Translations under genes and position numbers: made by a program
Source of the DNA: Candidatus Omnitrophota bacterium
GTDB lineage: Bacteria > Omnitrophota > Gorgyraeia > Zapsychrales > Zapsychraceae
Direction of reading: 5' to 3'
Length of the DNA: 64,000 nt
Assembly: GCA_015233405.1 (NCBI GenBank)
Contig: JADFXT010000003.1
Coordinates: 118,591 to 182,590 of the forward strand
The notes under the pieces: model-generated
Databases searched by the model: none
Told to the model about the DNA's origin: nothing
What the model saw: only the letters and a program-made list of their open reading frames with translations
Shown: positions 8,687 to 28,543 of the stretch, piece after piece
How the letters are laid out: every line of letters starts with the position of its first letter
How positions within the stretch are numbered: the first letter of the stretch is position 1

Positions 8687-9619
8687 CTAAAACTGAAATC
8701 CTGGCTGAAGCTTGTGTCCAACCGTAAAACTATGTGCATCCATAGGATTAGCGTTCTCAAGATGAACGCTCTTAATAAGAATCGCTTCCTTTGCGGTCTG
8801 AACAAGGATTCCGTTCTTTGAAATTTCGAGGACTTCGCCAGGTTTATGATTAGGGTTTAAAGCGGGGATAACTTCGGAAGTTAAAATCTTAAACAGCTTC
8901 TCTTGATAATAGGTATAGGCGCATGGCCAAGGCTGAAGCCCACGGACCTTATTATGAATGTCGACAGCGGAACTATTCCAGTCTATCTTGCCAAATTCCT
9001 TGGTGAGCTTCGGCGCCTTAGTCGCTTTGGTAGCATCCTGGGTCGTTAAGCGGACCATGCCATCATCAATGGCCTTTAAAGTTTCTTTAAGCTGCTCATT
9101 TCCTAAATCGATAAGTTTTTCTCGAAGGGTCACGGCATTATCTTCTGGATCAATGGGCATTGCTTTCTGTTTAATGATATCGCCGGCATCCAAAGAAATA
9201 TTTAGCCGAATGACTGTGACACCGGTCTGGGTTTCACCATTGATGAGCGCCCAGTTAATAGGAGCCGCGCCACGATATTTCGGTAATAGCGACGGATGGA
9301 CATTAAACGCGCCAAAATAAGGAAGTTCCAGAATTTCTTTGGGAAGAAGCTGGCCGTAAGAAACCACAATAAAAACATCCGGCTTAAAGGCCTTAAGCTC
9401 AGCAATAATCTCTTTATTTTCTTTTAAGGAAGCCGGCTGGAGAACTGCGATATGATGCGCTAGAGCAAGCTCTTTAATCGGCGAGACGACCATTTTTAAG
9501 CCACGGTCCTTAGGGCGGTCCGGCTGGGTCACGCAGGCAACAACTTTATGCCCGCCATCAAACAAACTCTTTAAGTGAGCTTCTGCAAAATCGTCGCTGC
9601 CAAAAAAAATAATGTTCAT
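8687..9619 (-). CDS. fmt: Methionyl-tRNA formyltransferase
   Basis: MNIIFFGSDDFA N-terminus, HPSLLPKYRGAAPI signature, C-terminal Fmt domain. The ORF-track start at 9634 adds 5 aa. Confidence 0.9.
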   Translation of the reverse strand: MNIIFFGSDDFAEAHLKSLFDGGHKVVACVTQPDRPKDRGLKMVVSPIKELALAHHIAVLQPASLKENKEIIAELKAFKPDVFIVVSYGQLLPKEILELPYFGAFNVHPSLLPKYRGAAPINWALINGETQTGVTVIRLNISLDAGDIIKQKAMPIDPEDNAVTLREKLIDLGNEQLKETLKAIDDGMVRLTTQDATKATKAPKLTKEFGKIDWNSSAVDIHNKVRGLQPWPCAYTYYQEKLFKILTSEVIPALNPNHKPGEVLEISKNGILVQTAKEAILIKSVHLENANPMDAHSFTVGHKLQPGFQF

Positions 9620-9674
9620 CTTAAAAGACTCCATGAAAAAAGGGCTGTTATTCTTTTCTTAACAGGCTCAATTT

Positions 9675-10464: not shown

Positions 10465-12381
10465 TTATTTCTCTCCGAGCGCGAGAGCGCCAAGTCTGCC
10501 GATAGTCTCGAGCAAATTTTGAATATCTTCCGTCAAAACGGAATCTTTTTTCATAAACTTGATTCCCAAGACAATTTGTGTCACATCTTCTTTCTTGACC
10601 GGTAAATAGACCGCTCGTGCCTCGCGTAGCGTCTTGGTCCCAGGACCAGCTGCTTGACCATTCTTATAAACCCAAGAAACAACAGCAAGCTCCTTATCAT
10701 CTAAAACAAACGCTGGGCTTAATTTTTGAAAAACGATTTCCCTTTGTTCCCCAAAAAAGAAAATGCCAGCCTCGCAAGGAATCAAGCTACGAACATGCCG
10801 GATAATAATTTTCGCTACCTCTTCCTTATCCTGGGCGACAAGAAGGTCTTTTGTCAAATCATACAAAGCAGCACTTTGTGCTTCACTATGGCGTAATTCC
10901 TTAAGTTGAAACCTTAAGATCGATGCCAAACTGCTTAAAAAAAATGCAATGGTCGCAAACACTGCGAAAGACAGAAAATACTGGACATCATTAACGGCAA
11001 ACGTGTAATACGGCTTGACGAATAAATAATCAAATACTGCGACGCTTAAAGCCGCAGAAAAAACAGCCGTCCGACGATTAAATCTTATGGAAACAAGAAC
11101 CACCGGCAAGAGCATGAGAAACAACATGTTCGTTTCGCTCAAATAATCCCTGAAAAGTTGTCCAACACCTGCTGCGACAACGACCCAAAGAAAGCCCCAA
11201 CTTAAGCCTTTCCATGGATTAAATAAAATTCTCGACGGGAGGAAGCTTTTTCGAAGTTCATGAGAGAACCAAAAGATATCCATTCCCTTTGTTTCTTTGA
11301 GCATCCGCCACATGAAAGCGAATCCCGTTCTGAAACGATGCGGCTTCCCGAGAATAATTTTAGTGATGTTGTGGTTCTCAGCGTAACGGACCACTTCTTT
11401 AGTAACATCATTTCCATGGACGACAACTACTTCCGCGCCTAAGGCTTTAGAAAGGTCCATGGCTTTCATCAGCCAACCTTTTTCCTGTTCCGTCATATTC
11501 TTATCGCGTTCAGTTTCGACGTGAAGTGCAGTCCATTTAGCGTTCAATTCTGAAGCAAAACGAAATGTTGAACGCACTAAATATTCTGCAGACGGGCTTG
11601 AAAATAAACCGACCAAAAGTTTATCCGTCACAGGCCACGGATCTTTAATGGCCTTGATCCTACGGTATTCGTCGACTTCCTTGTCGACCCGTGAGGTGAT
11701 ACAGCGTAGCGCCAATTCTCTTAACGCGGTCAGATTCCCCTGCGTGAAAAATCTTTCCACAGCGCGCTGGGCCATTTCTCCGATATAAACTTTGCCGTCC
11801 GCCAACCGTTTTAATAATTCTTTGGCAGGAAGGTCGATGATCTTCACCTCATCAGCGCTAAGGAAAATTCCGTCGGGAATGGTTTCCTTGACCTGAATAC
11901 CGGTAATACTAAAAACCAAGTCATTAACGCTTTCCAAGTGCTGGACATTTAAGGTCGAATAGACGTCAATCCCCGCTTTTAAAATCTCTTCCACATCCTG
12001 AAAACGCTTTTCATGACGAGAGCCAGGCGCATTGGTATGGGCCAACTCATCCATAACGACGAGCGAAGGCTTTTTCTGAAGAATTGCATCTAAATTGGCC
12101 TCGTAAAGTTCCAGGCCTTTATACGAAATCTTTTGCGAGGCGATCACCATTAACCCGGCGAGGAGAGCTTCTGTTTCTTTGCGCTTATGTGGTTCCACAT
12201 ACCCGACGATAATATCAACGCCTTCTTTTTTTTGATTCTGTGCCTCCTGAAGCATGGCATACGTCTTGCCTACACCAGGCGCCGCTCCAAAAAATATTGT
12301 CAGCTTGCCCTTTTTGCTTTCCGTTTCATTAGCAACTTTAAGCAAGGACTCCGGGTCTGGCCGTAAGAGTTCATCGTCCAT
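10465..12381 (-). CDS. kdpD: KdpD-like sensor lacking the histidine-kinase transmitter (KdpD-N + USP + 4 TM + GAF-like only)
   Basis: N-terminal KdpD domain with GAAPGVGKTYAML, a USP-like region, a 4-TM block, and a C-terminal ~130-aa GAF-like region. The ORF stops at 638 aa with no HisKA H-box or HATPase motifs. Confidence 0.8.
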   Translation of the reverse strand: MDDELLRPDPESLLKVANETESKKGKLTIFFGAAPGVGKTYAMLQEAQNQKKEGVDIIVGYVEPHKRKETEALLAGLMVIASQKISYKGLELYEANLDAILQKKPSLVVMDELAHTNAPGSRHEKRFQDVEEILKAGIDVYSTLNVQHLESVNDLVFSITGIQVKETIPDGIFLSADEVKIIDLPAKELLKRLADGKVYIGEMAQRAVERFFTQGNLTALRELALRCITSRVDKEVDEYRRIKAIKDPWPVTDKLLVGLFSSPSAEYLVRSTFRFASELNAKWTALHVETERDKNMTEQEKGWLMKAMDLSKALGAEVVVVHGNDVTKEVVRYAENHNITKIILGKPHRFRTGFAFMWRMLKETKGMDIFWFSHELRKSFLPSRILFNPWKGLSWGFLWVVVAAGVGQLFRDYLSETNMLFLMLLPVVLVSIRFNRRTAVFSAALSVAVFDYLFVKPYYTFAVNDVQYFLSFAVFATIAFFLSSLASILRFQLKELRHSEAQSAALYDLTKDLLVAQDKEEVAKIIIRHVRSLIPCEAGIFFFGEQREIVFQKLSPAFVLDDKELAVVSWVYKNGQAAGPGTKTLREARAVYLPVKKEDVTQIVLGIKFMKKDSVLTEDIQNLLETIGRLGALALGEK

Positions 12382-12958
12382 AATTTATTCCTTTTAAAGA
12401 ATCCAGCGCCATATTAAGCTTAAGCACATTAATACGAGGAGAACCTAAAAATCCAAATTGCTGGCCTTGAGCACAAGAGCTAATCAATTCCAAAACCTCC
12501 TTGACTGCAAATTTTCTTGCGAGGGCAACTCGCGGTGCTTGAAGCTGTGCTGATTCTAAACTAATATCAGGGTCCAACCCGCTTGCCGACATAAGAACCA
12601 AATCTCCGGGGATTTCTTTGTCCGCCAAGGACGGATTGTTCCGTTGGAGTACTGCGATCCGCTCTATCACCGCACTTTTAAATTTAGCGCTCGTGGGCCC
12701 AAAATTGCTAGCACCGGAAGCGGATGCGTCGTAATCCACCACCGATGGGCGCCCTTGGAAATAAAAATCCTTGGTAAATTTTTGACCGATCAAAACAGAT
12801 CCCTTGGATTTCCCGTCAACGATTAAGATACTCCCATTAGCTTCAAAAGGAAAGAGTATTTGCCCGACCAGCGTCATGAAGAACGGATAGATGATTCCGG
12901 TCAAGATAGAAAACACAAATAATATTTTTAACGACTTCCATAAACTTTTAAGCATCAT
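12371..12958 (-). CDS. kdpC: K+-transporting ATPase subunit C
   Basis: N-terminal TM plus the SGASNFGPTS motif, positioned after kdpB. I prefer the ATG at 12958 (GAGGAG SD) over the TTG at 12970. Confidence 0.85.
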   Translation of the reverse strand: MMLKSLWKSLKILFVFSILTGIIYPFFMTLVGQILFPFEANGSILIVDGKSKGSVLIGQKFTKDFYFQGRPSVVDYDASASGASNFGPTSAKFKSAVIERIAVLQRNNPSLADKEIPGDLVLMSASGLDPDISLESAQLQAPRVALARKFAVKEVLELISSCAQGQQFGFLGSPRINVLKLNMALDSLKGINYGR

Positions 12959-12966
12959 AAAACTCC

Positions 12967-15003
12967 TCAAACTAAATGTAGGAAATTAAGAACAAGATCA
13001 ATGATCTTGATCCCGATAAATGGCAAAATGATCCCGCCAACGCCATAAATAAGCAAATTCCGATATAAAAGTGCCGTCGGAGAAACCGGTTTATAGCGCA
13101 CCCCGCGTAGCGCCAGTGGAATCAACGCCGGAATAATGAGCGCGTTAAAAATGACTGCGGCCAAAACCGCGCTTTTAGCATTGGACAGCCGCATAATATT
13201 GAGAATCTGCAGCGCCGGATATTTCGCGATAAAGATCGCTGGAATAATGGCAAAATATTTCGCCACGTCATTGGCGATACTAAACGTGGTCAAGGCCCCG
13301 CGCGTGATCAAAATCTGTTTTCCGATCTCGACGATATCCAGAAGCTTTGTCGGATTGGAATCCAGGTCCACCATGTTCGCCGCTTCGCGCGCGACCTGCG
13401 TTCCGGCGTTCATGGCGACCGCCACATCCGCCTGCGCCAAGGCCGGCGCATCATTGGTCCCGTCGCCAATCATCGCGACCAAATAACCTTGCGCCTGATA
13501 TTTACGGATTAAATCAAGTTTCTTGTCCGGCTTGGCCTGGGCAAAAAAATCATCCAACCCTGCCTCGGCCGCTATGGAAGCTGCGGTCAACTGATTGTCG
13601 CCGGTAATCATGACCGACTGAATTCCCATCTTTCTTAGCTGCGAGATCCGTTCATAAATTCCTTTTTTAATAATATCCTTCAGTTGAATGACACCCAAGA
13701 CCTTACCATTCTCGGCGACGACCAAAGGAGTCCCGCCTTCAAAAGAAATATCCTCAATAATCTTATAAACCTCGGGCGAAACCGCACCTCCGTTATTTTT
13801 GACAAACTGGCCAATACCGTCTTCCGCGCCTTTACGAATGCGCCGGCTGCCGATATCAACTCCACTCATTCGGCTCTGGGCGCTAAACGGAATGAAAACT
13901 GATCCTTCCGGCGGTAAAATATCTTTTCCTTCAATCTTTAAACGTTCTTTGGCTAAAACAATGACACTCCGTCCTTCGGGAGTTTCGTCCGCGAGCGATG
14001 AATATATCGCCGCCTCTATCAACTCTTTTTCCGAAATCCCGTCGGCGGCAATAAACTGCGTCGCCATGCGGTTACCTAACGTGAGTGTCCCTGTTTTATC
14101 CAACAAGACCACATCCACATCGCCAGAAGCCTCGACGGCCCGGCCGCTTAACGCAATCACGTTCATCTGGAGTAACCTATCCATGCCTGCAATGCCAATG
14201 GCTGGCAAAAGCCCGCCGATGGTCGTCGGGATCAAACACACCAAAAGCGAGACCAGAACAACAACGGAAACATCCACCTGAATATAATTGGCGAAAAAGA
14301 CAAACGTCACGACGACAGCCAAGAAGATAACAGTAAGCCCTATGATTAAAATTTCCAACGCGACTTCATTGGGAGTTTTCTTTCTAACGGCACCCTCGAC
14401 CATCGCGATCATCTGGTCGATAAATGTCTTACCGGGCTCCGCCGTAATCCGTACTTTGAGTTTACCGGATAAAACTTTTGTCCCGGCTGTGACGCCCGAA
14501 CGGTCTCCGCCCGCCTCACGAATGACCGGCGCGGATTCACCTGTGACTGCGGACTCGTTAATGAGCGCTGTCCCTTCTATAATCTCGCCATCACCGGGAA
14601 TAGTATCGTTGTCCTCAAGAATAATGCAATCGCCCTTCTTAAGCTCAAGTCCCGTGATAACCTCAACTTTACCATCCGTTGTCAATCGTTTAGCTAAAGC
14701 TGTTTCCCGAGAACGTTTCAAACTCTCCGCCTGGGCTTTTCCGCGGCCCTCGGCAATCGCCTCAGAAAAATTCGCAAAAAGGACCGTAAACCACAACCAG
14801 ACTGATATTTGAATATCAAATCCCGCGGCTTGGCCGTGAAAACAGTCTAAGATCGCAATCCCCGTCGTTAAAATAGCACCCAATCCCACGAGGAACATGA
14901 CCGGATTTTTATAAAGCGAACGCGGATCCAATTTTTTAAACGAAACAACGATGGAATCCAGGACAATTTTTTTCTGCCATAATGATTTTTGTGTCTTCGA
15001 CAT
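12967..15003 (-). CDS. kdpB: K+-transporting P-type ATPase subunit B
   Basis: DKTGTLT phosphorylation motif, [21 protein letters not shown], 678 aa. Confidence 0.95.
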
Positions 15004-15014
15004 AATTGTTTCTC

Positions 15015-16718
15015 CTAAAAGACCTTTCCGGCCATCATTTGAAGATGTTCAAGCACAGGCCCAATCGTAAACGGCGGGAAAAAAGTCAGTGCCCCAATAA
15101 CAATGACCGTCGCACAAAGAATACAAATAAAAATCAGACTAGCCGTCGGAAGTGTAGCCCTGTTCTGAGGCGAAATCTTTTTGTGTGCCAGACTTCCTGC
15201 AATGACCAATGCCGGAATGATGGTCGCGAACCGCCCAACTAACATCGCCAAAGAAATGGTCAGATTATAAAACGGCGTGTTGGCATTTAATCCCGCAAAT
15301 GCCGATCCATTATTCCCAACCCCCGAGGCGTAGGCATAGAAAATTTCTGTAAAACCGTGCGGCCCGAAATTATTTAAACCCGTTAATCCGATGGGTAACG
15401 AAATAGCGCACGCCGCCAAGATTTTTAAGGTCACGCTCGGTAACACAATGGCCAAAACTGTCATGATCATCTCGGAAGATCCAAGTTTTTTCCCATAAAG
15501 CTCCGGCGTGCGGCCAATCATTAGCCCGATAATAAAAAGAGCCAGGACCGCATAGAACATCATGCCAATCAAACCGACACCGACGCCGCCGAAAATAACT
15601 TCACCTATTGTAATATTAAATAACGCGACCAAACCCGTCACGGGAAGCAAACTGTCGTGCATGGCATTGACGCTTCCGTTGGAAGTGGCAGAAGTGGCGA
15701 CTTCCCAATACACCGACGGAACGACACCGAATCGGGTTTCTTTGCCTTCCATATTCATACCCTGATGAACGCCAACACTTTGAAGAATGGGGCTTCCCTT
15801 CAACTCAAAAAATAACGCAATACTTAAACCCGCAACCAAAAGAATCAACATCGCAGTAAAAACCGCCCAGCCTTCTTTGCGTTTATTCAAGAGCTCACCG
15901 AGTAAAATAGGGAACGCAAACGGAATAAGCAGGATCGCCATCAGCTCAAGAAAATTCGTTAACGGAGTCGGGTTCTCAAAAGGATGCGCTGAATTGACGT
16001 TAAAAAATCCTCCTCCGTTGGACCCAAGCTGTTTAATAGCGATCTGCGAGGCAGCTGGCCCGACGGCTAAAACCTGTTTCTGGCCTTCCAGCGTTTGGAC
16101 ATTCACATAGGGATGAAGAGTTTGGACAACTCCTTGCGACATCAGTACGACCGCAAAAATAATCGATAAGGGTAAAAGTATATAAAGAATACTTCGCGTG
16201 AGATCCGCCCAAAAGTTTCCAATAGTTTCGCTAGATTGGCGGGAAAAACCTCTTAAGAACGCCACACATGCCGCCATCCCGGCCGCGGCAGAGACAAAAT
16301 TCTGGACGGTCAATCCCACCATCTGAGTTAAATAACTCATAGTGGCTTCTCCACTATAGGATTGCCAATTCGTATTAGTTACGAATGAAACAGCTGTATT
16401 GATGGCGAGATGCCAAGGAACCGCGGATAATTGGGCCGGATTTAAAGGAAGCTTATCCTGAAAAACCTGAATCAAAAAAAGGACGATAAAGCCCCACAAA
16501 TTAAGGAGAAGAAAATCTTTTGTGTAAACCTTCCAAGACATCTCCTCGGCAGGATCTATTCCGCATATTTTATAAAGGAAGGATTCGAGCGGTTTTATCA
16601 AGCAGCTTAAGAACGTTTTCTGCCCGCTGTAGACCAATTTAAAGAACTTTCCCAGCGGAATCGCTGCAAGCGTCAAAAGGGTCAAAGAAAGAAACAATTC
16701 AAAGAAATTGTTAGCCAT
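15015..16718 (-). CDS. kdpA: K+-transporting ATPase subunit A
   Basis: 567-aa polytopic protein collinear with KdpA, and the first gene of kdpABC. Confidence 0.9.
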
Positions 16719-17111: not shown

Positions 17112-18956
17112 TCATGGATCAACATTTATCGTGATCACAAGGTCACGCTTCTTTTTAAAATCACCCAATACAGACTTGACCAATTTCAAATTATCTTTCG
17201 CTGACTTGGCTTTAAGCATAATCGTAAAGCGGTACTTGTCCCGCAGCTTCGGAACCACGTCGGGATGCGGGTCGGAAATTTCAACCGACTGAGGCGCCTT
17301 GGCCTTAATGGCCTCGCACAATAATTTCACCTGCTCGAGGACAAATTCCTCATTCCTTCCGCGGACGACCAACAAAATAAGATGTTTGGCCGGCGGGAAT
17401 CCCAGCTCTTTTCTAAAAGATAACTCTTTACGATAAAACCCTTCAAAATTCATCTTCTCGATGGCTTTAAGGACATAATCGTTACGCATCATCGTCTGGA
17501 CGAGCAATTTTTCCTTCGCCATTAATCTGAGATTGATGAGCAAAGAAAACACTTTGTTCGCCGAGCGGAAATCAAAACGGTTCAGCTGGGCGTCAAAATC
17601 CACGACGACAATCACATCAAACGCCATATCCTGCTGAACCTTAAGGATCGCTTGTGTGGCGATGATAATATTAGCTTCGACGGGAAACGTTTTTGAGTCG
17701 CGATCATAGAGCCCGACCTTGGCCTGGGGATAATACCGCGCAACATCGCTTTGCAGTTTCTCAATGCCGCCGCCCATGGATTGTAAATATGCCTTCTGGC
17801 ACGACGGACAAACCTTCGGCAATTCCTTAGTTTCTCCGCAATGGCGGCAGACCAGCTTCTGCTGAGCATACATAAAAGTCAAGTTGACATCGCAACGGCT
17901 GCAGCGCATCGTAAACCCGCACGCACAGCGGGTCATGGTCGTAAAACCTTTACGGTTCATCAGCAAGACCACCCGTTTTTTCTGTTCCAGACACTGATAA
18001 AGAACATTCTGAAGCGGAAAAGACAAAAACGTGGATTTGCGGGATTTATAATTGCTCATGTCGATAACCTGAAACCCGCAATATTTCTCCGGCACAAATG
18101 TGACCTTCTCCCATTTATGTGCTGTTGCCTCTTTATAGGTCTCGACCGACGGAGCCGAGCTGATCAAGATCACCTTTGCGCCTTCCAATTGAGAACGAAG
18201 CTCAGCGATCTTTTGCATCCGAAAGAACGGCGACTGTTCTTCTTTATAAACGGTATTTTCCTCTTCAAAGATCGCGATCAATCCCAAATTCGGCGCCGGC
18301 GCGAAGATCGCAGTCAATGTTCCCAAAATAATGGAAGGAGCTCCCTGACGGATCTCGAGCCAAACCTCCAATTCTTTTTTGGGGGTCAACTTTTTATCCA
18401 AAACTAGGATCTTCGACGAGCAATCCTTTTCCAATTTCTGCTTGGCCTGCTCGATCGCCTCCAAAGACGGCATCAAGATAATAATGCTCTGTCCGCGAGC
18501 AAGGATTTCCTTAGCTTTTTCCATCACAAAAACCCATGACTGCCTTAAAGTCTCATCCTGTACAAGACAAAAAGATGAACCGGGCCGCTCAGGAACAGGA
18601 ACAACGACGGGAAGATCAACCGCCTGCCCACGGCGTAATGCATTCGGCAAATAGGAAAAAATCGCCTCTCCTAAAGAGCAGCCATAATACGCACTTAAGG
18701 CCTTGGCGAGGTTAAAAGCATTGTTGTCGACGGATGAGGTTGTCGTATCTAAAATTTCCAAAATAGGATTAAGACGGGGAAACGCACTTTTTTGTTTAAA
18801 TCCCACAACAACTCCGACGGTTTCCCGACGATTGAAAAGGACTTTCACGCGCTGGCCAACGGCAATTTTTTCCTGAAACTCTGTGCCGATGGCATAATCG
18901 AACGGGCCGTCCAAAGGAAGATCGACGACAATTAAAGCAATCTTGGGGGGATTCAT
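17112..18956 (-). CDS. priA: Primosomal protein N' (PriA) homolog with degenerate helicase/ATPase motifs
   Basis: Collinear with PriA: N-terminal DNA-binding domain, Cys-rich Zn region CACG...CSRC...CRHC...CPSC, and C-terminal domain. The Walker A position reads QDETLRQS and the DEEH position reads FEEEN. See findings. Confidence 0.75.
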   Translation of the reverse strand: MNPPKIALIVVDLPLDGPFDYAIGTEFQEKIAVGQRVKVLFNRRETVGVVVGFKQKSAFPRLNPILEILDTTTSSVDNNAFNLAKALSAYYGCSLGEAIFSYLPNALRRGQAVDLPVVVPVPERPGSSFCLVQDETLRQSWVFVMEKAKEILARGQSIIILMPSLEAIEQAKQKLEKDCSSKILVLDKKLTPKKELEVWLEIRQGAPSIILGTLTAIFAPAPNLGLIAIFEEENTVYKEEQSPFFRMQKIAELRSQLEGAKVILISSAPSVETYKEATAHKWEKVTFVPEKYCGFQVIDMSNYKSRKSTFLSFPLQNVLYQCLEQKKRVVLLMNRKGFTTMTRCACGFTMRCSRCDVNLTFMYAQQKLVCRHCGETKELPKVCPSCQKAYLQSMGGGIEKLQSDVARYYPQAKVGLYDRDSKTFPVEANIIIATQAILKVQQDMAFDVIVVVDFDAQLNRFDFRSANKVFSLLINLRLMAKEKLLVQTMMRNDYVLKAIEKMNFEGFYRKELSFRKELGFPPAKHLILLVVRGRNEEFVLEQVKLLCEAIKAKAPQSVEISDPHPDVVPKLRDKYRFTIMLKAKSAKDNLKLVKSVLGDFKKKRDLVITINVDP

Positions 18957-19104: not shown

Positions 19105-20181
19105 TTATCCGACCAGTTGAATAATATCTTTAACCGCATGCGGACGGGCAATCTGTTTGAGGGCTGTGAGAAATTTATCATGCGAAGATTGGAGCTCTTT
19201 AACATTTTGAACAATCGCATCTACTGTAAAACCTTTCATTCCAATGCCGTATTGGGCCAAGACGTCAATATTATTCGTTTCCTGCCCGGGAATCGCGCTA
19301 AAAAATATCATCGGCAAGTGGCTGACCAAGCATTCGGAAATGGACAACCCGCCGGGCTTCGTGATCATCACGTCAGAAACAGCCATGAGTTCATGCATAT
19401 TCTCTACATAACCAAACGGCTTGACGAGCGCGGATTGTTTGGCTTGTAACCGAGCGAATAATTCTTTATTATTCCCGCAGACGATGATGATCTGGACCGT
19501 GTTTAAATGTTCCATGATCTCTTCAATGGGCCCGAGGCCAAAAGACCCCGTCGCTAATAACACGGTAAAGACATTGTCCTTAAGACCAAATCTGCGCTTA
19601 AGCCCGGCGACATCCATAGGGCTGCTAAATTTCTCGTCGGTAGGAATACCGGTAACACAAACTTTTTCTTCGGGGACGCCTAAAGATATCATCTTTTTTT
19701 TGGTCAGATCCGTCGCGACTGTATAGATATCAATGCCTTTCGCCAACCATATCCGATGGACATCATAATCGGTCACAACCGTAATGAGCTTGGATTTAAT
19801 GCGGCCTTTGCGTTTTAACGCAGCCCCGATCTCCGTCGACATAAAATGGGTAGAGATGACACAATCATATTGCTCATCAATCAAAAGCTTATGGAATTTG
19901 GAAACATTTAGCGCATTATAAATCCGCCTTGCCAGTTGAACGAATGGCAGTAACCATGGGATATCCAAGAGTCCAAAGAAAAATGCCCAGACCCGAGGAA
20001 GTTTGGTGATCAAGAAGAAATAAGTATTACGGTAAAGGTCTTTAAAAAACGGACTAGAATAATCCAGGATATCAATGCAGCGAACACTATGATTGGTGTG
20101 TTGTTCAATGCCATGGCAGACAGCTTCCGCAGCTTTTTGATGGCCAGCACCTGCAGAGGCATGAACGATGAGAATTTTCAT
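19105..20181 (-). CDS. MGDG synthase / diacylglycerol glycosyltransferase (GT28, UgtP-like)
   Basis: N-terminus MKILIVHASAGAGHQKAAEA, typical of the MGDG-synthase family, plus a C-terminal GT-B domain (ITKPGGLSISE). Confidence 0.8.
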   Translation of the reverse strand: MKILIVHASAGAGHQKAAEAVCHGIEQHTNHSVRCIDILDYSSPFFKDLYRNTYFFLITKLPRVWAFFFGLLDIPWLLPFVQLARRIYNALNVSKFHKLLIDEQYDCVISTHFMSTEIGAALKRKGRIKSKLITVVTDYDVHRIWLAKGIDIYTVATDLTKKKMISLGVPEEKVCVTGIPTDEKFSSPMDVAGLKRRFGLKDNVFTVLLATGSFGLGPIEEIMEHLNTVQIIIVCGNNKELFARLQAKQSALVKPFGYVENMHELMAVSDVMITKPGGLSISECLVSHLPMIFFSAIPGQETNNIDVLAQYGIGMKGFTVDAIVQNVKELQSSHDKFLTALKQIARPHAVKDIIQLVG

Positions 20182-20377: not shown

Positions 20378-21028
20378 TCATTTTCGCTTAAAAGCCTTGA
20401 CCGTTGTATATCGCATCGATGCGCAGAGATGGACTTTTTTTCTTTTTCCCGGTAAAATCACCGTTTGCACTGCTTCCAATAAATCTTTCACGACAAAATC
20501 CGGTTCGACAACCCATGCGCGCTTATGACGACCATCTTCGCGTCCTGAAAGAGAGAAAATGGTCGAGCATCCTGCGGCAAAACCAGCGACGATATCGCCT
20601 TCCGTATCGCCGACAAAATAGGTATTCTTAGCATAACGGATTGTTTTCCCCAACATCGCCAGCGCTTCGCGCACAGAGCCGGTTTCCGGCTTACGGCAAT
20701 TGCATCCTTGGTCTGAACGGTGAGTGCAATAGAATGTCCGTCGGATACGCCCGCCATTGGCTTCGATTTCCCTGATCATATTCCGATGAATATGGTCGAG
20801 CTTTTGCTGGGAATAAATCCCTTTCCCGACGCCAGCTTGGTTCGAAACAATAAAAATTTCGTAGCCCTGCTCAGTTAAGATCCGTAACGCCTCTAAAACA
20901 CCCGGGATAAAATGGAAATCCTTCACCGTGGTGACATATTTTCCATTGCCCGGGAATTCGTTAATAAGCCCGTCTCTGTCTAAAAAAACAGCCTTGATCA
21001 CTGACCCTTTTCCTTTTTCATCTGCCAA
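20378..21028 (-). CDS. gmhB: D-glycero-D-manno-heptose 1,7-bisphosphate phosphatase (HAD-IIIA)
   Basis: FLDRDGLIN, VSNQAGVGKG, the Zn-site C-x-H...C-N-C-RKP, and GDTEGD. Collinear with E. coli GmhB. Confidence 0.85.
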   Translation of the reverse strand: MADEKGKGSVIKAVFLDRDGLINEFPGNGKYVTTVKDFHFIPGVLEALRILTEQGYEIFIVSNQAGVGKGIYSQQKLDHIHRNMIREIEANGGRIRRTFYCTHRSDQGCNCRKPETGSVREALAMLGKTIRYAKNTYFVGDTEGDIVAGFAAGCSTIFSLSGREDGRHKRAWVVEPDFVVKDLLEAVQTVILPGKRKKVHLCASMRYTTVKAFKRK

Positions 21029-21834
21029 TATTTGGCATAGCTCATGATTTGGTAAAGAGAGGCAAAAAAAGCAACCATAAAGCCAATGAATCCGTCTTTA
21101 TATCCTTTCTTACCAAAATATATTCTTGGGAACCTGTCTAGCGTCCGCCAGACCACTTTGCCCAACCCTATCCGACGATTAGTGTTAATCCATTTCCGGG
21201 CCTCGAGCGTCGTCTGACGATTCAAACTCGCCAGAAAATGTTCAAAATCCGGATAGCCTTTATGCACGATATCTTTGGTTAAGTGCCCTTCCACTCCGGT
21301 CAAAAAAGCGCGCGGATGGACTTCGACTTCCTCATATTTAAAACGGCTTTTCATGAACATGCGCAATTTGCTCGCCGGATACCATCCGGAATGCTTGACC
21401 CAATAGCTGCCGATATATGTCTTGATCGGCATGGAAAACGCATGATATTGTCCGTTATTATTTAAAAGAGCGCTGGTGATTTCTTCGCGCAATTCCGGCG
21501 AGACGCTTTCATCCGCATCTAAACTTAATACCCACTCATTTCTCGCCTGCGCATAACCCCAATTACGATGAATGCCTTCGATATCCATTTTACGCTTAAG
21601 GACCTTGGCGCCGCAGGCTAAAGAGATCTCTGCCGTCTTGTCCGTACTCTCGTCGTCAACAACGATCATTTCATCCGCCCAGCCCGACACGCTTTGAAGG
21701 CAGGCAGCGATATTCGCTTCTTCATTTTTGGCAGACACAACAACTGTTAAAGGAACTTTTTCCACTGAATATAACCCTCTTTTTCTACGCACGACCAATT
21801 CTTTTAAGATTGCTTCTTTTGGGTCATCTCCCAA
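20998..21834 (-). CDS. Glycosyltransferase family 2 (WaaE/KdtX-like), tandem paralog 1
   Basis: VVVSAKNEE...VVDDESTDKT, LDADE, and C-terminal KKGYKDGFIGFMVAFF...YAKYW. Confidence 0.8.
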   Translation of the reverse strand: MGDDPKEAILKELVVRRKRGLYSVEKVPLTVVVSAKNEEANIAACLQSVSGWADEMIVVDDESTDKTAEISLACGAKVLKRKMDIEGIHRNWGYAQARNEWVLSLDADESVSPELREEITSALLNNNGQYHAFSMPIKTYIGSYWVKHSGWYPASKLRMFMKSRFKYEEVEVHPRAFLTGVEGHLTKDIVHKGYPDFEHFLASLNRQTTLEARKWINTNRRIGLGKVVWRTLDRFPRIYFGKKGYKDGFIGFMVAFFASLYQIMSYAKYWQMKKEKGQ

Positions 21835-22565
21835 TATTTTGCATAACTGATAATCTGATAAGCAGAATTAAAGAATGCGACCATAAAACCTATCAATCCA
21901 TCTTTATATCCTTTTTTGGCGACATAAGTCCGGAAAAACCGATCGACCGCGCGCCAAAAATATTTCCCGAACGTGAATTTCTTATTCGATTTAAACATCT
22001 TGGTCGCTTCGGCGGTCGTCTGATTATTGAGCTTCGTAAGATAATGCGTAAAATCCCTGTAACTTTTATGAATCGTATCTTTTGTCAGAAACTTGACCTT
22101 TCCCGTCGCACGGACAATCGGATGAACCTCAACCTCTTCAGATTTAAGATGCCCTTTACGAAAAAGCCTCAGTTGAGGCGCCGGATATTGTCCTCCGTAC
22201 TGAAGCCAATAATCACCAATATAATTACGGTGGGGAATTCCATAAACATCCGCTTGAGGATTGGCTAACTCGTCTTCAATTTCTTTTTTTAATTCTTCCG
22301 TCAGGATTTCATCCGCATCGAGGACTAAAGCCCACTCACATGTCCCTTGGTCATTTGCCCAATTTCTGTGGACGCCTTCGATGTCCATTTTCCTAAAGAG
22401 GATTCGGTCTGTGTACTGTTTAGCGATCTCAACCGTCTTATCCGTACTCTCGTCGTCAATAATGACAATTTCTTTCGCCCAACCATAAACACTTTTTAAG
22501 CAGTCATGCAGGCGCTTTTCTTCATTCTTGACACAAACAATAATGGACAAAGGCACAGGGATCAT
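21804..22565 (-). CDS. Glycosyltransferase family 2 (WaaE/KdtX-like), tandem paralog 2
   Basis: Same motif set as the neighbour (IIDDESTDKT, LDADE, KKGYKDGLIGFMVAFF...YAKYW). Confidence 0.8.
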   Translation of the reverse strand: MIPVPLSIIVCVKNEEKRLHDCLKSVYGWAKEIVIIDDESTDKTVEIAKQYTDRILFRKMDIEGVHRNWANDQGTCEWALVLDADEILTEELKKEIEDELANPQADVYGIPHRNYIGDYWLQYGGQYPAPQLRLFRKGHLKSEEVEVHPIVRATGKVKFLTKDTIHKSYRDFTHYLTKLNNQTTAEATKMFKSNKKFTFGKYFWRAVDRFFRTYVAKKGYKDGLIGFMVAFFNSAYQIISYAKYWEMTQKKQS

Positions 22566-26890: not shown

Positions 26891-28543
26891 TTATAATTTC
26901 CGTTGCCAGATATTTAGAGACGGCGTGCTGTCGATGATCTGATAATTCTCGTGCACGTAGTTCATCACGCCCGTATATTTCTCTTGGTTCGCAGGGACAA
27001 CAAGTTGCGTCGTCGGTAAATAGTCCGGTAGTTGTTTATACATCACAACATACTTGGGTGTTTGGGCTTCAAGCGCTGTCATAAACTCCCGGTGCCATTG
27101 AGGGCTTATCCACGAAAGAGATACAATTGGAAAACGACCGACAAAAGGACGGTTCACGATAAAATGATACACACCTAAATCAGGGAAAAAAACAATTCTG
27201 TCTTGAGGCTGCGTATGGCTGTTGATGAAATAAGATACTTCCTGGAAATCACGGGCCTGCTGTTCCGGCACGACCATTCCCTGCATACCGGGTAACGACA
27301 GCGAGACCAAATCCTGGTCGGAAAACGGGAATAATTTCGACAAGCGTTTCATCTTTCCCATCAGGCAAGACGTCATTTGAGCCGCATAAAAACGTTTTTG
27401 GTAGCGTGGTAGTGCATAGACCACGGTAGATAAAAAAATGCTCACTAATAAAATTCCCGCCATCACTTGTCGACGGCGCTGGTGGCTGTCTTTCATCCAA
27501 GTCCATAATCGCTCCAATAAGAAAAAGAACAAAAGCTTTTCCGGCTGAAGCGCCGATTCAAATGCCGGACCCCACAAACTGCGCATCGAACCTATGAATA
27601 AAAATAGTCCATATAAAGCTAAACATAAGATGTCCAGACGAACGGCTTTGCGGCGATAAAGATAAATCCCATAGACGAGAACGCCAACGTAGCAAAACAA
27701 AGGCGTCATTTGTTTAAAATTCACATCTTTTGGATTTACCATGGCCGCCAGAACTCCGCCTAACCCTTGCGGGACAGGATCGACCTGCGGAAAAGTTTTG
27801 ATCATATTGGCGCTGATTTGATAATAACTATCTAACATCGGGATAAAAGCTCCCTTGAGCTGTAAAAATAAACACATCGGGAAAAGAATGATAGCTGCTC
27901 CGATGCTGTAAAACAAAATTGAAGACTTAAATAATTTTTCCCGGATTAAAAAACAAAGCGTCAAAAAAATACTGCCAAACGCATAAACGCCGATTTCGAT
28001 GCTGGTCATCAATCCTATGGCGGAAAAAATGCCAGCCATGACCATCCAAAGACCTTTCTTGTTTTTCAGATATTGAAGGACGCAATAGACCGCGGCCAAA
28101 CCCCAGGCGAAACGGAATCCTCCTCCTATGGTAAACGAAACCCGGGGAAAAGTTCGGGCGACAAAGGCGAGCGTCATAGAATATAAAAAAATCCGCGAGC
28201 TGAAAATTTCTTTGGCGATCAAAATACAGACGATCAGCGTGACTAAAGTCCCGAGATAAAAATACGTCGGTATGACCAAAAAATTCCTGCCAACAATATG
28301 CATGGCCCACGCCGGGATATAAAGTTCAAACGGCCCTCTTAAATGCAAAAAATCCCGATAAGGGATTTGCCCGTGGAGAATCGCGTCCACCCCAGGAAGA
28401 TAAAGCCCCATTTCAAAAAGGTTGATTCTCCCCCACAGATAAAACGGATGCCAGGTAATCAAAAGAATAAATACGGACAAAATTCCCGCATCCCATTTGC
28501 CCGGCGCTGAGAGCGCCCATTTTTTTAAATTTTCTATAAACAA
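26891..28543 (-). CDS. Large polytopic membrane protein, paralog A (GT-C/ArnT-like candidate)
   Basis: About 11 TM helices plus a ~190-aa C-terminal soluble domain. Collinear similarity to the ORF at 33308-35197 (LPGVDAILHGQIPYRDF vs LPGVDAVLKGLVPYRDF; ...GRFPIVSLSW vs GRFPMATLSW). Confidence 0.6.
   Translation of the reverse strand: MFIENLKKWALSAPGKWDAGILSVFILLITWHPFYLWGRINLFEMGLYLPGVDAILHGQIPYRDFLHLRGPFELYIPAWAMHIVGRNFLVIPTYFYLGTLVTLIVCILIAKEIFSSRIFLYSMTLAFVARTFPRVSFTIGGGFRFAWGLAAVYCVLQYLKNKKGLWMVMAGIFSAIGLMTSIEIGVYAFGSIFLTLCFLIREKLFKSSILFYSIGAAIILFPMCLFLQLKGAFIPMLDSYYQISANMIKTFPQVDPVPQGLGGVLAAMVNPKDVNFKQMTPLFCYVGVLVYGIYLYRRKAVRLDILCLALYGLFLFIGSMRSLWGPAFESALQPEKLLFFFLLERLWTWMKDSHQRRRQVMAGILLVSIFLSTVVYALPRYQKRFYAAQMTSCLMGKMKRLSKLFPFSDQDLVSLSLPGMQGMVVPEQQARDFQEVSYFINSHTQPQDRIVFFPDLGVYHFIVNRPFVGRFPIVSLSWISPQWHREFMTALEAQTPKYVVMYKQLPDYLPTTQLVVPANQEKYTGVMNYVHENYQIIDSTPSLNIWQRKL

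What the first reader, a model, noticed from the sequence alone, without database searches (positions are those of the whole stretch)
17112..18956. PriA homolog in which every ATPase/helicase motif is degenerate (candidate pseudo-helicase)
I aligned this ORF by eye to E. coli PriA as I remember it.
- Walker A: GVTGSGKT is QDETLRQS here (inside LVQDETLRQS, aa 131-140, nt 18537-18566).
- Walker B: IDEEHD is IFEEEN.
- Motif III: SAT is SSA.
- Motif V: GTQMLAKGHHFP is ATQAILKVQQDM.
- Motif VI: QVAGRAGRA is NLRLMAKE, so the Arg fingers are lost.

The flanking framework stays collinear. This includes VLMPSLEAIEQ, GTLTAIF, LLMNRKGF and all eight Cys of the Zn-binding region. The N-terminal DNA-binding and C-terminal domains are also present. 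The protein is about 120 aa shorter than E. coli PriA, mostly between the N-terminal domain and lobe 1. The pattern suggests a PriA kept as a DNA-binding or primosome-loading scaffold without motor activity.
Basis: partly seen in the sequence, partly recalled or inferred. Interest (0 to 1): 0.6.

Follow-up and report, generated by a model that had tools for sequence, protein, structure and literature searches.

The report
Motor-dead PriA replication-restart protein, Omnitrophota
This gene is the bacterium's own PriA replication-restart protein, and in a large branch of the uncultured phylum Omnitrophota it has lost every ATP-binding motif while keeping its DNA-recognition parts; this is a second natural "pseudohelicase" PriA lineage after the one known in Deinococcus.

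Summary
ORF 17112-18956 (-), 614 aa, is a clear PriA homologue: TIGR00595 scores 303 bits, PDB PriA hits reach E~1e-55, and the AlphaFold model (pLDDT 95) matches E. coli PriA at TM 0.89. It has no Walker A, Walker B Asp, motif III, motif V Gly/Met or motif VI Arg fingers, and it also lacks the Q-motif helix and the winged-helix domain.

This is not an assembly error or a pseudogene. None of 94 close relatives, and about 210 representatives at 29-66% identity, has a P-loop. They still keep the 3'-end-binding domain, DNA-contact motifs Ia, Ib and IV, the aromatic-rich loop, eight Zn-binding Cys and the C-terminal domain.

Other Omnitrophota carry canonical PriAs of about 665 aa (105 of 105 with a P-loop) in the same locus (HAD, MGDG-synthase, priA, fmt). 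The dead form is therefore a positional orthologue that decayed in place, not an extra paralogue.

The best reading is an ATP-independent fork-recognition and helicase-recruiting adaptor, like E. coli priA300 (K230R) and the D. radiodurans PriA pseudohelicase (Lopper 2015). It is a new, more eroded member of a known kind. No biochemistry was done, and a second priA elsewhere in the genome was not excluded.

The parts
17112..18956 (-). priA coding sequence, 614 aa plus stop; P-loop-less PriA (pseudohelicase candidate)
   Evidence: ORF list. TIGR00595 priA 303 bits against a cut-off of 230. PDB PriA chains at E~1e-55. AlphaFold model pLDDT 94.9, best match 8fak_H with TM 0.89.
18645..18932 (-). 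3'-DNA-binding domain (aa 9-104), with the F19-D20-Y21 pocket equivalent to E. coli F16-D17-Y18
   Evidence: Pfam PF17764 72.8 bits. F-D-Y is invariant in 94 of 94 clade members. The E. coli K61 equivalent is Asn63 here.
18534..18566 (-). Former Walker A / motif I: LVQDETLRQSW in place of LLhGVTGSGKT
   Evidence: The clade consensus is LLHD..x.KRW, with D in 83 of 101 and W in 92 of 101. No glycine-rich loop is present.
18459..18476 (-). Motif Ia remnant LMPSLE (canonical LVPEI; Pro kept, Glu replaced by Ser here)
   Evidence: Pro is kept in 98 of 101 clade members and Glu in 76 of 101. Glu is Ser in this protein and in its two closest relatives.
18297..18323 (-). Motif Ib GTLTAIFAP (canonical G-[AT]-R-S-A-x-F-A-P; the Arg is Leu here)
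   Evidence: Arg is kept in 98 of 101 clade members. R to L is shared only by P0001, P0002 and P0003.
18255..18278 (-). Former Walker B / motif II: IAIFEEEN in place of I-V-V-D-E-E-H-E
   Evidence: The Asp is kept in only 21 of 101 clade members. The second Glu of DEEH (canonical E-3, E232 here) is kept in 98 of 101.
18219..18248 (-). Aromatic-rich loop (motif IIa) YKEEQSPFFR; the clade consensus is YKQEQxPHYH(AR)
   Evidence: For the role of the ARL in E. coli see PMC5175346.
18150..18164 (-). Former motif III: ISSAP in place of GSATP
17943..17960 (-). Motif IV MNRKGF (canonical LNRRGF), an ssDNA-contacting motif that is retained
   Evidence: The E. coli equivalents R427/R428 bind ssDNA in the PriA pore (PMC13594977).
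17799..17927 (-). Cys-rich region with all eight Zn-ligand cysteines (aa 344-386)
   Evidence: Pfam PF18319 25.4 bits. All eight Cys are present in 282 of 297 aligned sequences, this one included.
17637..17660 (-). Former motif V: ATQAILKV in place of GTQMIAKG (Thr-Gln kept; Gly, Met and Gly lost)
17514..17543 (-). Former motif VI: LLINLRLMAK in place of LLTQVAGRAGRG. Both Arg fingers are gone and there is a 5-residue deletion.
17115..17387 (-). PriA C-terminal domain (aa 524-614)
   Evidence: Pfam PF18074 54.6 bits.
19105..20181 (-). Upstream neighbour: MGDG-synthase-like glycosyltransferase, a conserved synteny marker of the priA locus
   Evidence: Pfam. The same neighbour sits beside pseudo-PriA P0102 and canonical PriA P0365.
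20378..21028 (-). HAD-family phosphatase, a second synteny marker
   Evidence: Pfam. Loci L003 and L006.
8687..9634 (-). fmt (methionyl-tRNA formyltransferase-like), the usual downstream partner of priA. Here it is separated from priA by the kdpABCD genes.
   Evidence: Pfam. priA-fmt or priA-def-fmt adjacency in L003, L005 and L006.

Best explanation
This is the organism's own priA gene, sitting in the ancestral priA locus. In a large sub-lineage of the phylum Omnitrophota it has turned from an SF2 helicase into a pseudohelicase.

**What was lost.** The nucleotide site was dismantled:
- The Q-motif helix is deleted.
- The P-loop is replaced by a glycine-free D...(K)RW segment.
- The Walker B Asp is replaced by Tyr or Phe.
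- Motif III, and the Gly and Met of motif V, are replaced.
- The motif VI Arg fingers are deleted.

The protein therefore cannot bind or hydrolyse ATP, and cannot translocate or unwind. This step is inferred from sequence.

**What is kept under purifying selection.** This is what PriA uses to recognise an abandoned fork or D-loop and hold the lagging-strand template:
- the 3'-end-binding domain
- the ssDNA-contact motifs Ia, Ib and IV, and the Thr-Gln of motif V
- the aromatic-rich loop
- the zinc-binding Cys-rich region
- the C-terminal domain

**Most likely mechanism (inferred).** The protein binds forks that already expose single-stranded lagging-strand template. It then acts as a static platform that recruits the replicative helicase DnaB and its loader. 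This parallels the ATPase-dead E. coli PriA K230R, which still assembles primosomes, and D. radiodurans PriA, which binds fork DNA and DnaB.

This particular protein and its two nearest relatives have gone one step further. They have also lost the motif Ib Arg and the motif Ia Glu.
For: **Homology and fold (shown).** Pfam 3'BD, CRR and CTD domains. TIGR00595 above its cut-off. PDB PriA chains at E~1e-55. AlphaFold model with pLDDT 94.9, best match E. coli PriA 8fak_H at TM 0.89.

**Motif loss (shown).**. No DEAD or Helicase_C Pfam hit.

**Shared across the clade, intact ORFs, selective conservation (shown).**
- 0 of 94 clade members have a P-loop, against 105 of 105 canonical Omnitrophota PriAs.
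- About 125 of the best 150 representatives in an exhaustive search of 1.84 billion proteins lack one.
- Canonical-invariant residues split cleanly. ATP-contact positions are kept in 10% or fewer of clade members (25% or fewer counting the motif I Thr and Walker B Asp). Ia-Pro, Ib G-R-S-F-P, ARL Y-K-Q-P-Y, IV N-R-G, the eight Cys, V-Thr and many CTD residues are kept in 90% or more.
- Mean identity per domain is inverted relative to canonical PriAs.

| Domain | Pseudo clade | Canonical Omnitrophota |
|---|---|---|
| Lobe 1 | 0.44 | 0.68 |
| 3'BD | 0.56 | 0.49 |

**Positional orthology (shown).** The order HAD, MGDG_synth, priA, fmt, GalT, GalT, GAPDH is shared by pseudo-PriA P0102, canonical PriAs P0365 and P0337 and the window. 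In NJ trees on non-lobe columns, pseudo and canonical Omnitrophota PriAs group together apart from outgroups.

**Functional precedent (literature).**
- priA300 (K230R) has no ATPase yet supports PriA-PriB restart (PMC5778457; PMC13594977).
- D. radiodurans PriA has no ATPase or helicase activity but binds ssDNA, fork DNA and DnaB (PMC4504706).
Against: - No biochemical data exist for any member. Loss of ATP binding is inferred from motif loss, and I could not inspect the model's coordinates to check the pocket.
- I could not scan a whole genome that carries the dead form for a second, canonical priA. Only the 64-kb window and four ~6-22 kb loci from relatives were checked.
- The former P-loop is not random. 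D134 and W141 are conserved in 88-93% of the close clade, so that site may have some new role.
- In this protein the motif Ib Arg and motif Ia Glu are also lost. That weakens the claim that ssDNA binding by lobe 1 is preserved in this particular member.
- The partners (DnaB, loader, SSB) were not identified in the window.
Confidence: 0.7

Rival explanations
1. It is a specialised paralogue. These genomes keep a canonical PriA helicase elsewhere, and this motor-dead copy does something else, for example regulating, capping or competing at forks, or serving a mobile element.
For: Canonical PriAs do exist within Omnitrophota. No complete genome carrying the dead form could be scanned (one search used the only genome scan). 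The clade has its own conserved residues (D134, W141, E195, Q241, N302, Y303 and others), which could mark a new interface.
Against: The dead form occupies the same locus as the canonical form in other members of the phylum: HAD, MGDG_synth, priA, fmt. On non-lobe domains the two forms group together in trees. No second priA was found in the window or the fetched loci. No contig length is shared between the pseudo and canonical hit lists. Named MAGs carry one form or the other in the few cases where names are visible.
Confidence: 0.12
2. It is still an NTPase or translocase that uses a non-canonical site. For example, the conserved K/R-R-W segment together with the retained E-E of the former Walker B would bind nucleotide without a glycine-rich loop.
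For: The close clade conserves D134, K139 or R140 (in most members) and W141, and keeps E232 in 98 of 101. Motifs Ia, Ib and IV and the ARL, which couple DNA binding to the motor in active PriA, are retained.
Against: All glycines of the P-loop are gone. The Q-motif helix is deleted. Both motif VI Arg fingers are deleted. The Walker B Asp is Tyr or Phe in most members. Across the wider family the motif I segment is hypervariable, which does not fit a ligand-binding loop. In this protein the Lys/Arg positions are Gln-Ser. In E. coli the single change K230R already abolishes ATPase (PMC5778457).
Confidence: 0.06
3. It is a decaying gene, either a pseudogene in progress or an artefact of MAG assembly, and has no function.
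For: Every catalytic motif is lost. This member and its two nearest relatives show extra losses: Ib Arg, Ia Glu and ARL changes.
Against: The ORF is full length with no internal stops. Relatives at 29-66% identity, about 210 representatives from independent assemblies, keep the same length and domain order. 113 positions are conserved at 90% or more within the clade, and this protein violates only 7 of them. The AlphaFold model is very confident at pLDDT 94.9.
Confidence: 0.03

Closest known systems
Deinococcus radiodurans / Deinococcus-Thermus PriA pseudohelicase (Lopper, Boone & Morrow 2015, PLoS One, PMC4504706)
   Same: A PriA orthologue whose Walker A and Walker B motifs are degenerate across a whole lineage. 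The Walker A Lys is commonly Arg in both: 78 of 101 members here, and K to R in Deinococcus-Thermus. The DNA-binding architecture is retained in both, and both are interpreted as restart factors without a motor.
   Different: The phylum differs (Omnitrophota, PVC group). The origin appears to be independent, because this clade groups with canonical Omnitrophota PriAs and shares their locus. The erosion goes further: no glycine-rich loop at all, the Q-motif helix deleted, motif VI deleted, motifs III and V changed, and no winged-helix domain. The Deinococcus protein has been assayed. It has no ATPase or helicase activity and binds ssDNA, fork DNA and DnaB. Nothing has been assayed here, and no Deinococcus-Thermus sequence was available to me for direct comparison.
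E. coli PriA K230R (priA300) and K230A/D ATPase-dead variants
   Same: PriA without ATPase, helicase or translocase activity that still assembles primosomes and supports restart through the PriA-PriB route (PMC5778457; PMC13594977). This is the functional model for what the protein can still do.
   Different: Those are laboratory point mutants with every other motif intact, and they depend on PriB and DnaT. Here the whole nucleotide site has been remodelled in nature, and the partner set is unknown.
Canonical Omnitrophota PriA (about 660-680 aa; e.g. P0365, P0337, P0298)
   Same: Same phylum and same locus (MGDG_synth, priA, fmt). Same architecture without a winged-helix domain. Same 3'BD, CRR and CTD domains. 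Both AlphaFold models best match 8fak_H.
   Different: The canonical forms keep the Q motif, GxxxxGKT (105 of 105), DE[EQ]H (99 of 105) and GRxGR (105 of 105). Their lobes are about 60% identical to outgroup PriAs, against about 31% for this clade.
E. coli / K. pneumoniae PriA helicase (PDB 4NL4, 6DGD, 8FAK)
   Same: Overall fold and domain order: 3'BD, lobe 1, lobe 2 with the inserted CRR, then CTD. TM 0.89 to 8fak_H.
   Different: 22-24% identity. The winged-helix domain is absent. All ATP-site motifs are absent. The E. coli K61 and H455 equivalents are changed, to Asn and to Leu/Met.

Membership tests
PriA (primosomal protein N') family | N-terminal 3'-DNA-binding domain with the F-D-Y 3'-end pocket | tested here: met
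   PF17764 72.8 bits over aa 9-104. F19-D20-Y21 present and invariant in the clade.
PriA (primosomal protein N') family | Two RecA-like lobes with a Cys-rich Zn-binding insertion in lobe 2 (8 Cys) | tested here: met
   AlphaFold model matches 8fak_H at TM 0.89. All eight Cys are present. PF18319 scores 25.4 bits, just under its cut-off of 26.
PriA (primosomal protein N') family | PriA C-terminal domain | tested here: met
   PF18074 54.6 bits over aa 524-614.
PriA (primosomal protein N') family | Score above the curated family threshold (NCBIfam TIGR00595 priA equivalog) | tested here: met
   303 bits against a cut-off of 230, covering aa 145-614. The narrower PRK05580.x equivalog models are all far below their cut-offs.
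PriA (primosomal protein N') family | Orthologous genomic position (priA next to def/fmt) | tested here: met
   Same locus as canonical Omnitrophota PriAs. In the window, fmt lies downstream after an inserted kdpABCD block.
PriA (primosomal protein N') family | Winged-helix DNA-binding domain between the 3'BD and lobe 1 | tested here: not met
   The linker is about 30 aa here, about 56 aa in canonical Omnitrophota PriAs and about 160 aa in outgroups. The domain is also absent from the canonical PriAs of this phylum, so it does not define membership in this lineage.
Active SF2 DNA helicase / 'replication restart helicase PriA' | Walker A GxxxxGK[ST] and Q motif | tested here: not met
   No match anywhere in the ORF. 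The aligned segment is QDETLRQSW. The Q-motif helix is deleted.
Active SF2 DNA helicase / 'replication restart helicase PriA' | Walker B DExH, motif III SAT, motif V GTQM..KG, motif VI Q..GR.GR | tested here: not met
   These read FEEEN, SSA, ATQAILKV and NLRLMA plus a 5-aa deletion. No Pfam DEAD, ResIII or Helicase_C hit.
Active SF2 DNA helicase / 'replication restart helicase PriA' | DNA-dependent ATPase and 3'-5' unwinding activity | not testable with these tools
   Needs purified protein.
PriA pseudohelicase (as defined for Deinococcus-Thermus, PMC4504706) | PriA orthologue with lineage-wide degenerate Walker A/B | tested here: met
   0 of 94 clade members have a P-loop and the Walker B Asp is kept in 21 of 101.
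PriA pseudohelicase (as defined for Deinococcus-Thermus, PMC4504706) | No ATPase or helicase activity, but ssDNA, fork DNA and DnaB binding retained | not testable with these tools
   Support is indirect only: retention of Ia, Ib, IV, the ARL, the 3'BD, the CRR and the CTD.
PriA pseudohelicase (as defined for Deinococcus-Thermus, PMC4504706) | Common descent with the Deinococcus-Thermus proteins | not tested
Grouping with canonical Omnitrophota PriAs and the shared locus argue for an independent origin.

The most novel reading that the evidence does not exclude
A whole, species-rich branch of Omnitrophota restarts replication with a PriA that has no motor at all and no second PriA. The branch includes sub-lineages that have also discarded the Cys-rich region. 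The conserved replacement residues at the former nucleotide site and nearby (D134, W141, E195, Q241, N302/Y303) would then form a new fixed interface that substitutes for ATP-driven conformational switching, for example by holding the lobes in a loading-competent state or by docking DnaB or its loader directly. Canonical, intermediate and fully eroded forms sit at one locus within one phylum. That would give a stepwise natural series for how a helicase becomes a pure adaptor.
Probability: 0.3. Interest if true: 0.65.

Novelty: new member of a known kind. Interest (0 to 1): 0.45.

Why it matters
The field's working view is that PriA helicase motifs are conserved across bacteria, with Deinococcus as the single exception (review PMC5778457). 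These results add a second, apparently independent lineage that is much more eroded and very diverse.

This lineage is useful for three reasons:
- Active orthologues sit at the same locus in sister lineages.
- Partly degenerate intermediates exist.
- Some derivatives have also lost the zinc-binding region.

Together these form a natural comparative series for two questions. Which PriA functions need the motor? What compensates when it is gone, for example which other helicase, which loader, or which fork structures?

There is also a practical annotation point. Pipelines name these proteins 'primosomal protein N'' or 'replication restart helicase' because they pass TIGR00595, yet they almost certainly are not helicases.

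The concept is not new, given priA300 and DrPriA. The value lies in the breadth and in the built-in evolutionary controls.

Tried and rejected
1. **Constitutive 'CRR-UP' conformation.** The pseudo-PriA model matched fork- and PriB-bound E. coli PriA (8fak_H, TM 0.89) better than apo structures (about 0.78). I asked whether the dead form is locked in the loading-competent state. The control was an AlphaFold model of a canonical Omnitrophota PriA (P0365). It gave the same ranking, 0.88 against 0.75. The preference is therefore not specific to the dead form, and I rejected the idea.

2. **Organism names for the nearest canonical and intermediate representatives.** Two cluster look-ups returned no names at all. 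Taxonomy came from the names in the two homologue searches instead.

3. **Exact look-up of the window protein's contig.** Not on record.

4. **Genome-collection scan.** I ran it with the single protein rather than an alignment. Whole-genome checks for a second priA were therefore not possible.

5. **Full-size bootstrapped NJ with Biopython.** It timed out. I redid it with a numpy NJ on 140 taxa.

6. **Shortness as a novelty.** Rejected. Canonical Omnitrophota PriAs also lack the winged-helix domain, and a 612-position NCBIfam PriA model exists (NF004069).

7. **Pseudogene or assembly error.** Rejected on conservation.

8. **Literature search for prior reports.** Searches for Omnitrophota together with PriA, and for other PriA pseudohelicases, turned up only the Deinococcus paper and works citing it.
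Full report
**1. What is in the sequence**

ORF 17112..18956 on the minus strand encodes 614 aa with an ATG start and no internal stop. Pfam finds the three PriA-specific domains:
- PriA_3primeBD, aa 9-104, 72.8 bits
- Zn_ribbon_PriA, aa 352-377, 25.4 bits against a cut-off of 26
- PriA_C, aa 524-614, 54.6 bits

Pfam finds no DEAD, ResIII or Helicase_C domain. NCBIfam TIGR00595 (priA) scores 303 bits against a cut-off of 230. phmmer against all PDB chains finds only PriA at significant E-values: K. pneumoniae and E. coli chains 4nl4, 6dgd, 6dcr, 8fak and 9zbu at about 1e-55. The alignment covers aa 6-113 and 148-586. It skips the stretch that holds the winged-helix domain and Walker A in those proteins.

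An AlphaFold2 model built on an 81-sequence alignment is very confident (pLDDT 94.9, pTM 0.92). Its best structural matches are all PriA, led by 8fak_H at TM 0.89. The next family is Mfd at E~1e-12.

**2. The motifs**

| Motif | Canonical | This protein |
|---|---|---|
| I (Walker A) | LLhGVTGSGKT | LVQDETLRQSW |
| II (Walker B) | DEEH | FEEE |
| III | GSAT | ISSA |
| V | GTQMxAKG | ATQAILKV |
| VI | QVAGRAGRG | NLRLMA, with five residues deleted |

There are two further losses. The helix carrying the Q motif (L-T/N-x-E-Q) is gone, and so is the winged-helix domain. The linker from the 3'BD to motif I is about 30 aa here. It is about 56 aa in canonical PriAs of the same phylum, which keep the Q-motif helix but have no winged helix. 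It is about 160 aa in outgroup PriAs.

All eight Zn-ligand cysteines are present.

The 'framework' string GTLTAIF is motif Ib with its conserved Arg replaced by Leu. Motif Ia has Ser in place of Glu.

**3. It is a lineage, not an accident**

The protein is identical to an NCBI MAG protein labelled Candidatus Omnitrophica. The word-indexed search returned about 110 cluster representatives at 30-66% identity. Nearly all are 608-632 aa. Their organism labels are Omnitrophica/Omnitrophota, apart from one partial sequence labelled Methanomicrobia and one from an unclassified hydrothermal-vent metagenome. None has GxGK[ST].

An exhaustive phmmer search of 1.84 billion representatives gave the same picture. 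About 125 of the best 150 lack a P-loop.

In an NJ tree, 210 P-loop-less sequences form one clade with no canonical member. Partly degenerate forms sit at its base, and canonical PriAs of about 660-680 aa lie just outside. Examples of the partly degenerate forms are P0209 (NTTAQAKT, with DEEH and GTQM kept) and P0219 (GKPGSGKM).

**4. What is lost and what is kept**

I took the positions that are at least 90% invariant in canonical PriAs and asked how often the close clade keeps them. The result is bimodal.

Kept in 10% or fewer of members, except where a figure is given:
- motif I G, S, G, K, T (the internal Thr is kept in 25%)
- motif Ia Thr
- Walker B Asp (21%)
- ARL Arg
- motif III G, A, T
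- motif IV Gln
- motif V G, M, G
- motif VI Q, V, G, R, G, R

Kept in 90% or more of members:
- 3'BD Y21, G34, R36
- Ia Pro
- Ib G212, R214, S215, F218, P220
- E232
- ARL Y237, K238, Q239, P243, Y245
- R254
- IV N334, R335, G337
- the eight Cys
- V Thr434
- D455, D462, R464, Q487
- F507, E511, R515, P521-P522

The retained set corresponds to DNA-contact and structural elements. The literature links the ARL and motif IV to ssDNA binding in the PriA pore (PMC5175346; PMC13594977).

Mean pairwise identity per domain shows that the hierarchy of constraint has inverted.

| Domain | Within canonical Omnitrophota | Within pseudo clade |
|---|---|---|
| 3'BD | 0.49 | 0.56 |
| Lobe 1 | 0.68 | 0.44 |
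| CRR | 0.60 | 0.58 |
| Lobe 2 (second part) | 0.70 | 0.51 |
| CTD | 0.45 | 0.51 |

Against outgroups, the lobes are about 0.61 identical for canonical forms and about 0.31 for dead forms. The 3'BD and CTD differ only slightly between the two groups.

The E. coli D17-equivalent pocket residue is invariant in the dead clade (94 of 94), whereas it varies among T, H and D in canonical Omnitrophota PriAs.

The clade also has its own conserved residues: D134 and W141 in the former P-loop, E195, Q241, W274, N302, Y303, S393, A436, L476, D566 and D573.

**5. Orthologue or paralogue?**

A profile of the nearest canonical sequences retrieved about 100 PriAs of 659-690 aa carrying Pfam DEAD and Helicase_C domains. 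Every organism name among them is Omnitrophica or Omnitrophota. Scalindua (Planctomycetota) PriAs come next. Canonical PriA therefore exists within the phylum.

| Protein (locus) | Form | Gene order |
|---|---|---|
| P0102 (L003) | pseudo | Carbam_trans, SxtJ..., GT2..., HAD, MGDG_synth, priA, fmt, GalT, GalT, GAPDH |
| P0365 (L006) | canonical | Carbam_trans, SxtJ, x, GT2, HAD, x, MGDG_synth, priA..., fmt..., GalT, GalT, GAPDH |
| P0337 (L005) | canonical | priA, def, fmt, GalT, GalT, GAPDH |
| Window | pseudo | DegT, GT2, GT2, HAD, MGDG_synth, priA, kdpA, kdpB, kdpC, kdpD..., fmt |

On non-lobe columns only, which avoids circularity from the motif columns, 114 of 120 Omnitrophota sequences (dead plus canonical) fall in one split without outgroups. 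Within that set, 84 of 90 dead forms fall in one split.

The dead form is thus a positional orthologue that decayed in place. The winged-helix loss came earlier and is shared with the canonical forms.

I could not scan a whole genome for a second copy. None is present in the window or in the fetched loci.

**6. Mechanism**

*Shown:* homology, fold, motif loss, selective conservation and orthologous position.

*Inferred:* the protein cannot bind or hydrolyse ATP, so it cannot translocate or unwind. It still recognises fork or D-loop DNA through the 3'BD, lobe DNA-contact motifs, CRR and CTD, and it recruits the replicative helicase.

The inference rests on two precedents:
- E. coli PriA K230R/A/D lacks ATPase yet assembles primosomes and supports the PriA-PriB pathway. 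It fails in the PriA-PriC pathway, which needs unwinding (PMC5778457; PMC13594977).
- D. radiodurans PriA has degenerate Walker motifs and no ATPase or helicase activity. It has near-normal ssDNA and fork binding and a direct DnaB interaction (PMC4504706).

The 2026 Keck-lab model says unwinding is needed only when the lagging-strand arm is duplex. A motor-less PriA would then be limited to forks that already expose ssDNA, roughly 9-11 nt or more by the E. coli figures, or it would rely on another helicase. This step is my inference.

This protein and its two closest relatives also lack the Ib Arg and the Ia Glu. Lobe 1 ssDNA contacts may therefore be weaker in this sub-branch.

**7. Control that removed an attractive idea**

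The model's preference for the fork/PriB-bound 'CRR-UP' structure 8fak over apo structures is matched by a model of a canonical Omnitrophota PriA. It says nothing specific about the dead form.

**8. Comparison and novelty**

The kind, a natural PriA pseudohelicase, is known from Deinococcus-Thermus. The 2017 review calls Deinococcus the exception to otherwise conserved PriA helicase activity. Searches of the held literature found no report linking Omnitrophota to PriA degeneracy, and no other PriA pseudohelicase lineage.

This is therefore a new member of a known kind. It is apparently independent in origin, far more eroded, and accompanied by in-phylum canonical orthologues and intermediates.

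Interest is moderate. It would not overturn the current picture, but it offers a ready-made comparative system, and it flags a systematic mis-annotation of these proteins as helicases.

Noticed in passing
Relatives only: P0096, P0110, P0160, P0169, P0171, P0174, P0178, P0179, P0180, P0206, P0208, P0221, P0224, P0257: Fourteen P-loop-less family members (551-589 aa) have also lost the whole Cys-rich zinc-binding region. It is replaced by a linker of 0-30 aa with none of the 8 Cys. In E. coli that region forms the ssDNA pore and the PriB docking site, so these are even more reduced PriAs.
   Followed up: partly
Relatives only: P0209, P0219, P0225, P0236, P0238, P0243, P0267 (about 645-700 aa): These are partly degenerate PriAs at the base of the dead clade in the NJ tree. 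P0209 has NTTAQAKT with DEEH and GTQM kept and motif VI lost. P0219 has GKPGSGKM with YEEHD. They look like intermediate stages of motif loss. Their taxonomy is unknown because no names were returned.
   Followed up: partly
window 10465-16718 (-): A complete kdp potassium-uptake block lies between priA and fmt: kdpA 15015-16718, kdpB 12967-15003, kdpC 12371-12970 and a kdpD-like sensor 10465-12381. In relatives (L003, L005) priA and fmt or def-fmt are adjacent, so this looks like an insertion into the conserved locus. The KdpD ORF shows the KdpD, Usp and DUF4118 domains, but no histidine-kinase domain was reported at E<=1e-5.
   Followed up: partly
window 1-64000: 47 of the 48 ORFs of 200 aa or more are on the minus strand, and GC skew is negative in every 2-kb bin. 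The whole window appears to be one strongly co-oriented stretch of a single replichore.
   Followed up: no
window 20998-21834 and 21804-22565 (-): Two adjacent, overlapping family-2 glycosyltransferase genes have clearly similar sequences (shared ...DESTDKT...MDIEG.HRNW...KKGYKDG.IGFMVAFF...YAKYW). This is a tandem duplication within a large envelope or LPS-type gene cluster (DegT, GT9 heptosyltransferase, NTP-transferase, Wzz, Wzy, Poly_export, LptD).
   Followed up: no
window 26891-28543 (-): A 550-aa ORF has no Pfam match at E<=1e-5.
   Followed up: no
L003 3641-4839 and 16513-17749; L004 likewise: Two AbiE-type toxin-antitoxin pairs (AbiEii with an HTH, and AbiEi_4 with AbiEii) flank the priA locus of the relative that encodes P0102.
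   Followed up: no
P0005: A partial member of the dead clade (64% identity) is labelled 'Methanomicrobia archaeon' at NCBI. On a 1.4-kb contig this is most likely a mis-binned Omnitrophota fragment. It may be worth remembering because some Omnitrophota are reported to associate with methanogens (my own recollection, not checked).
   Followed up: no
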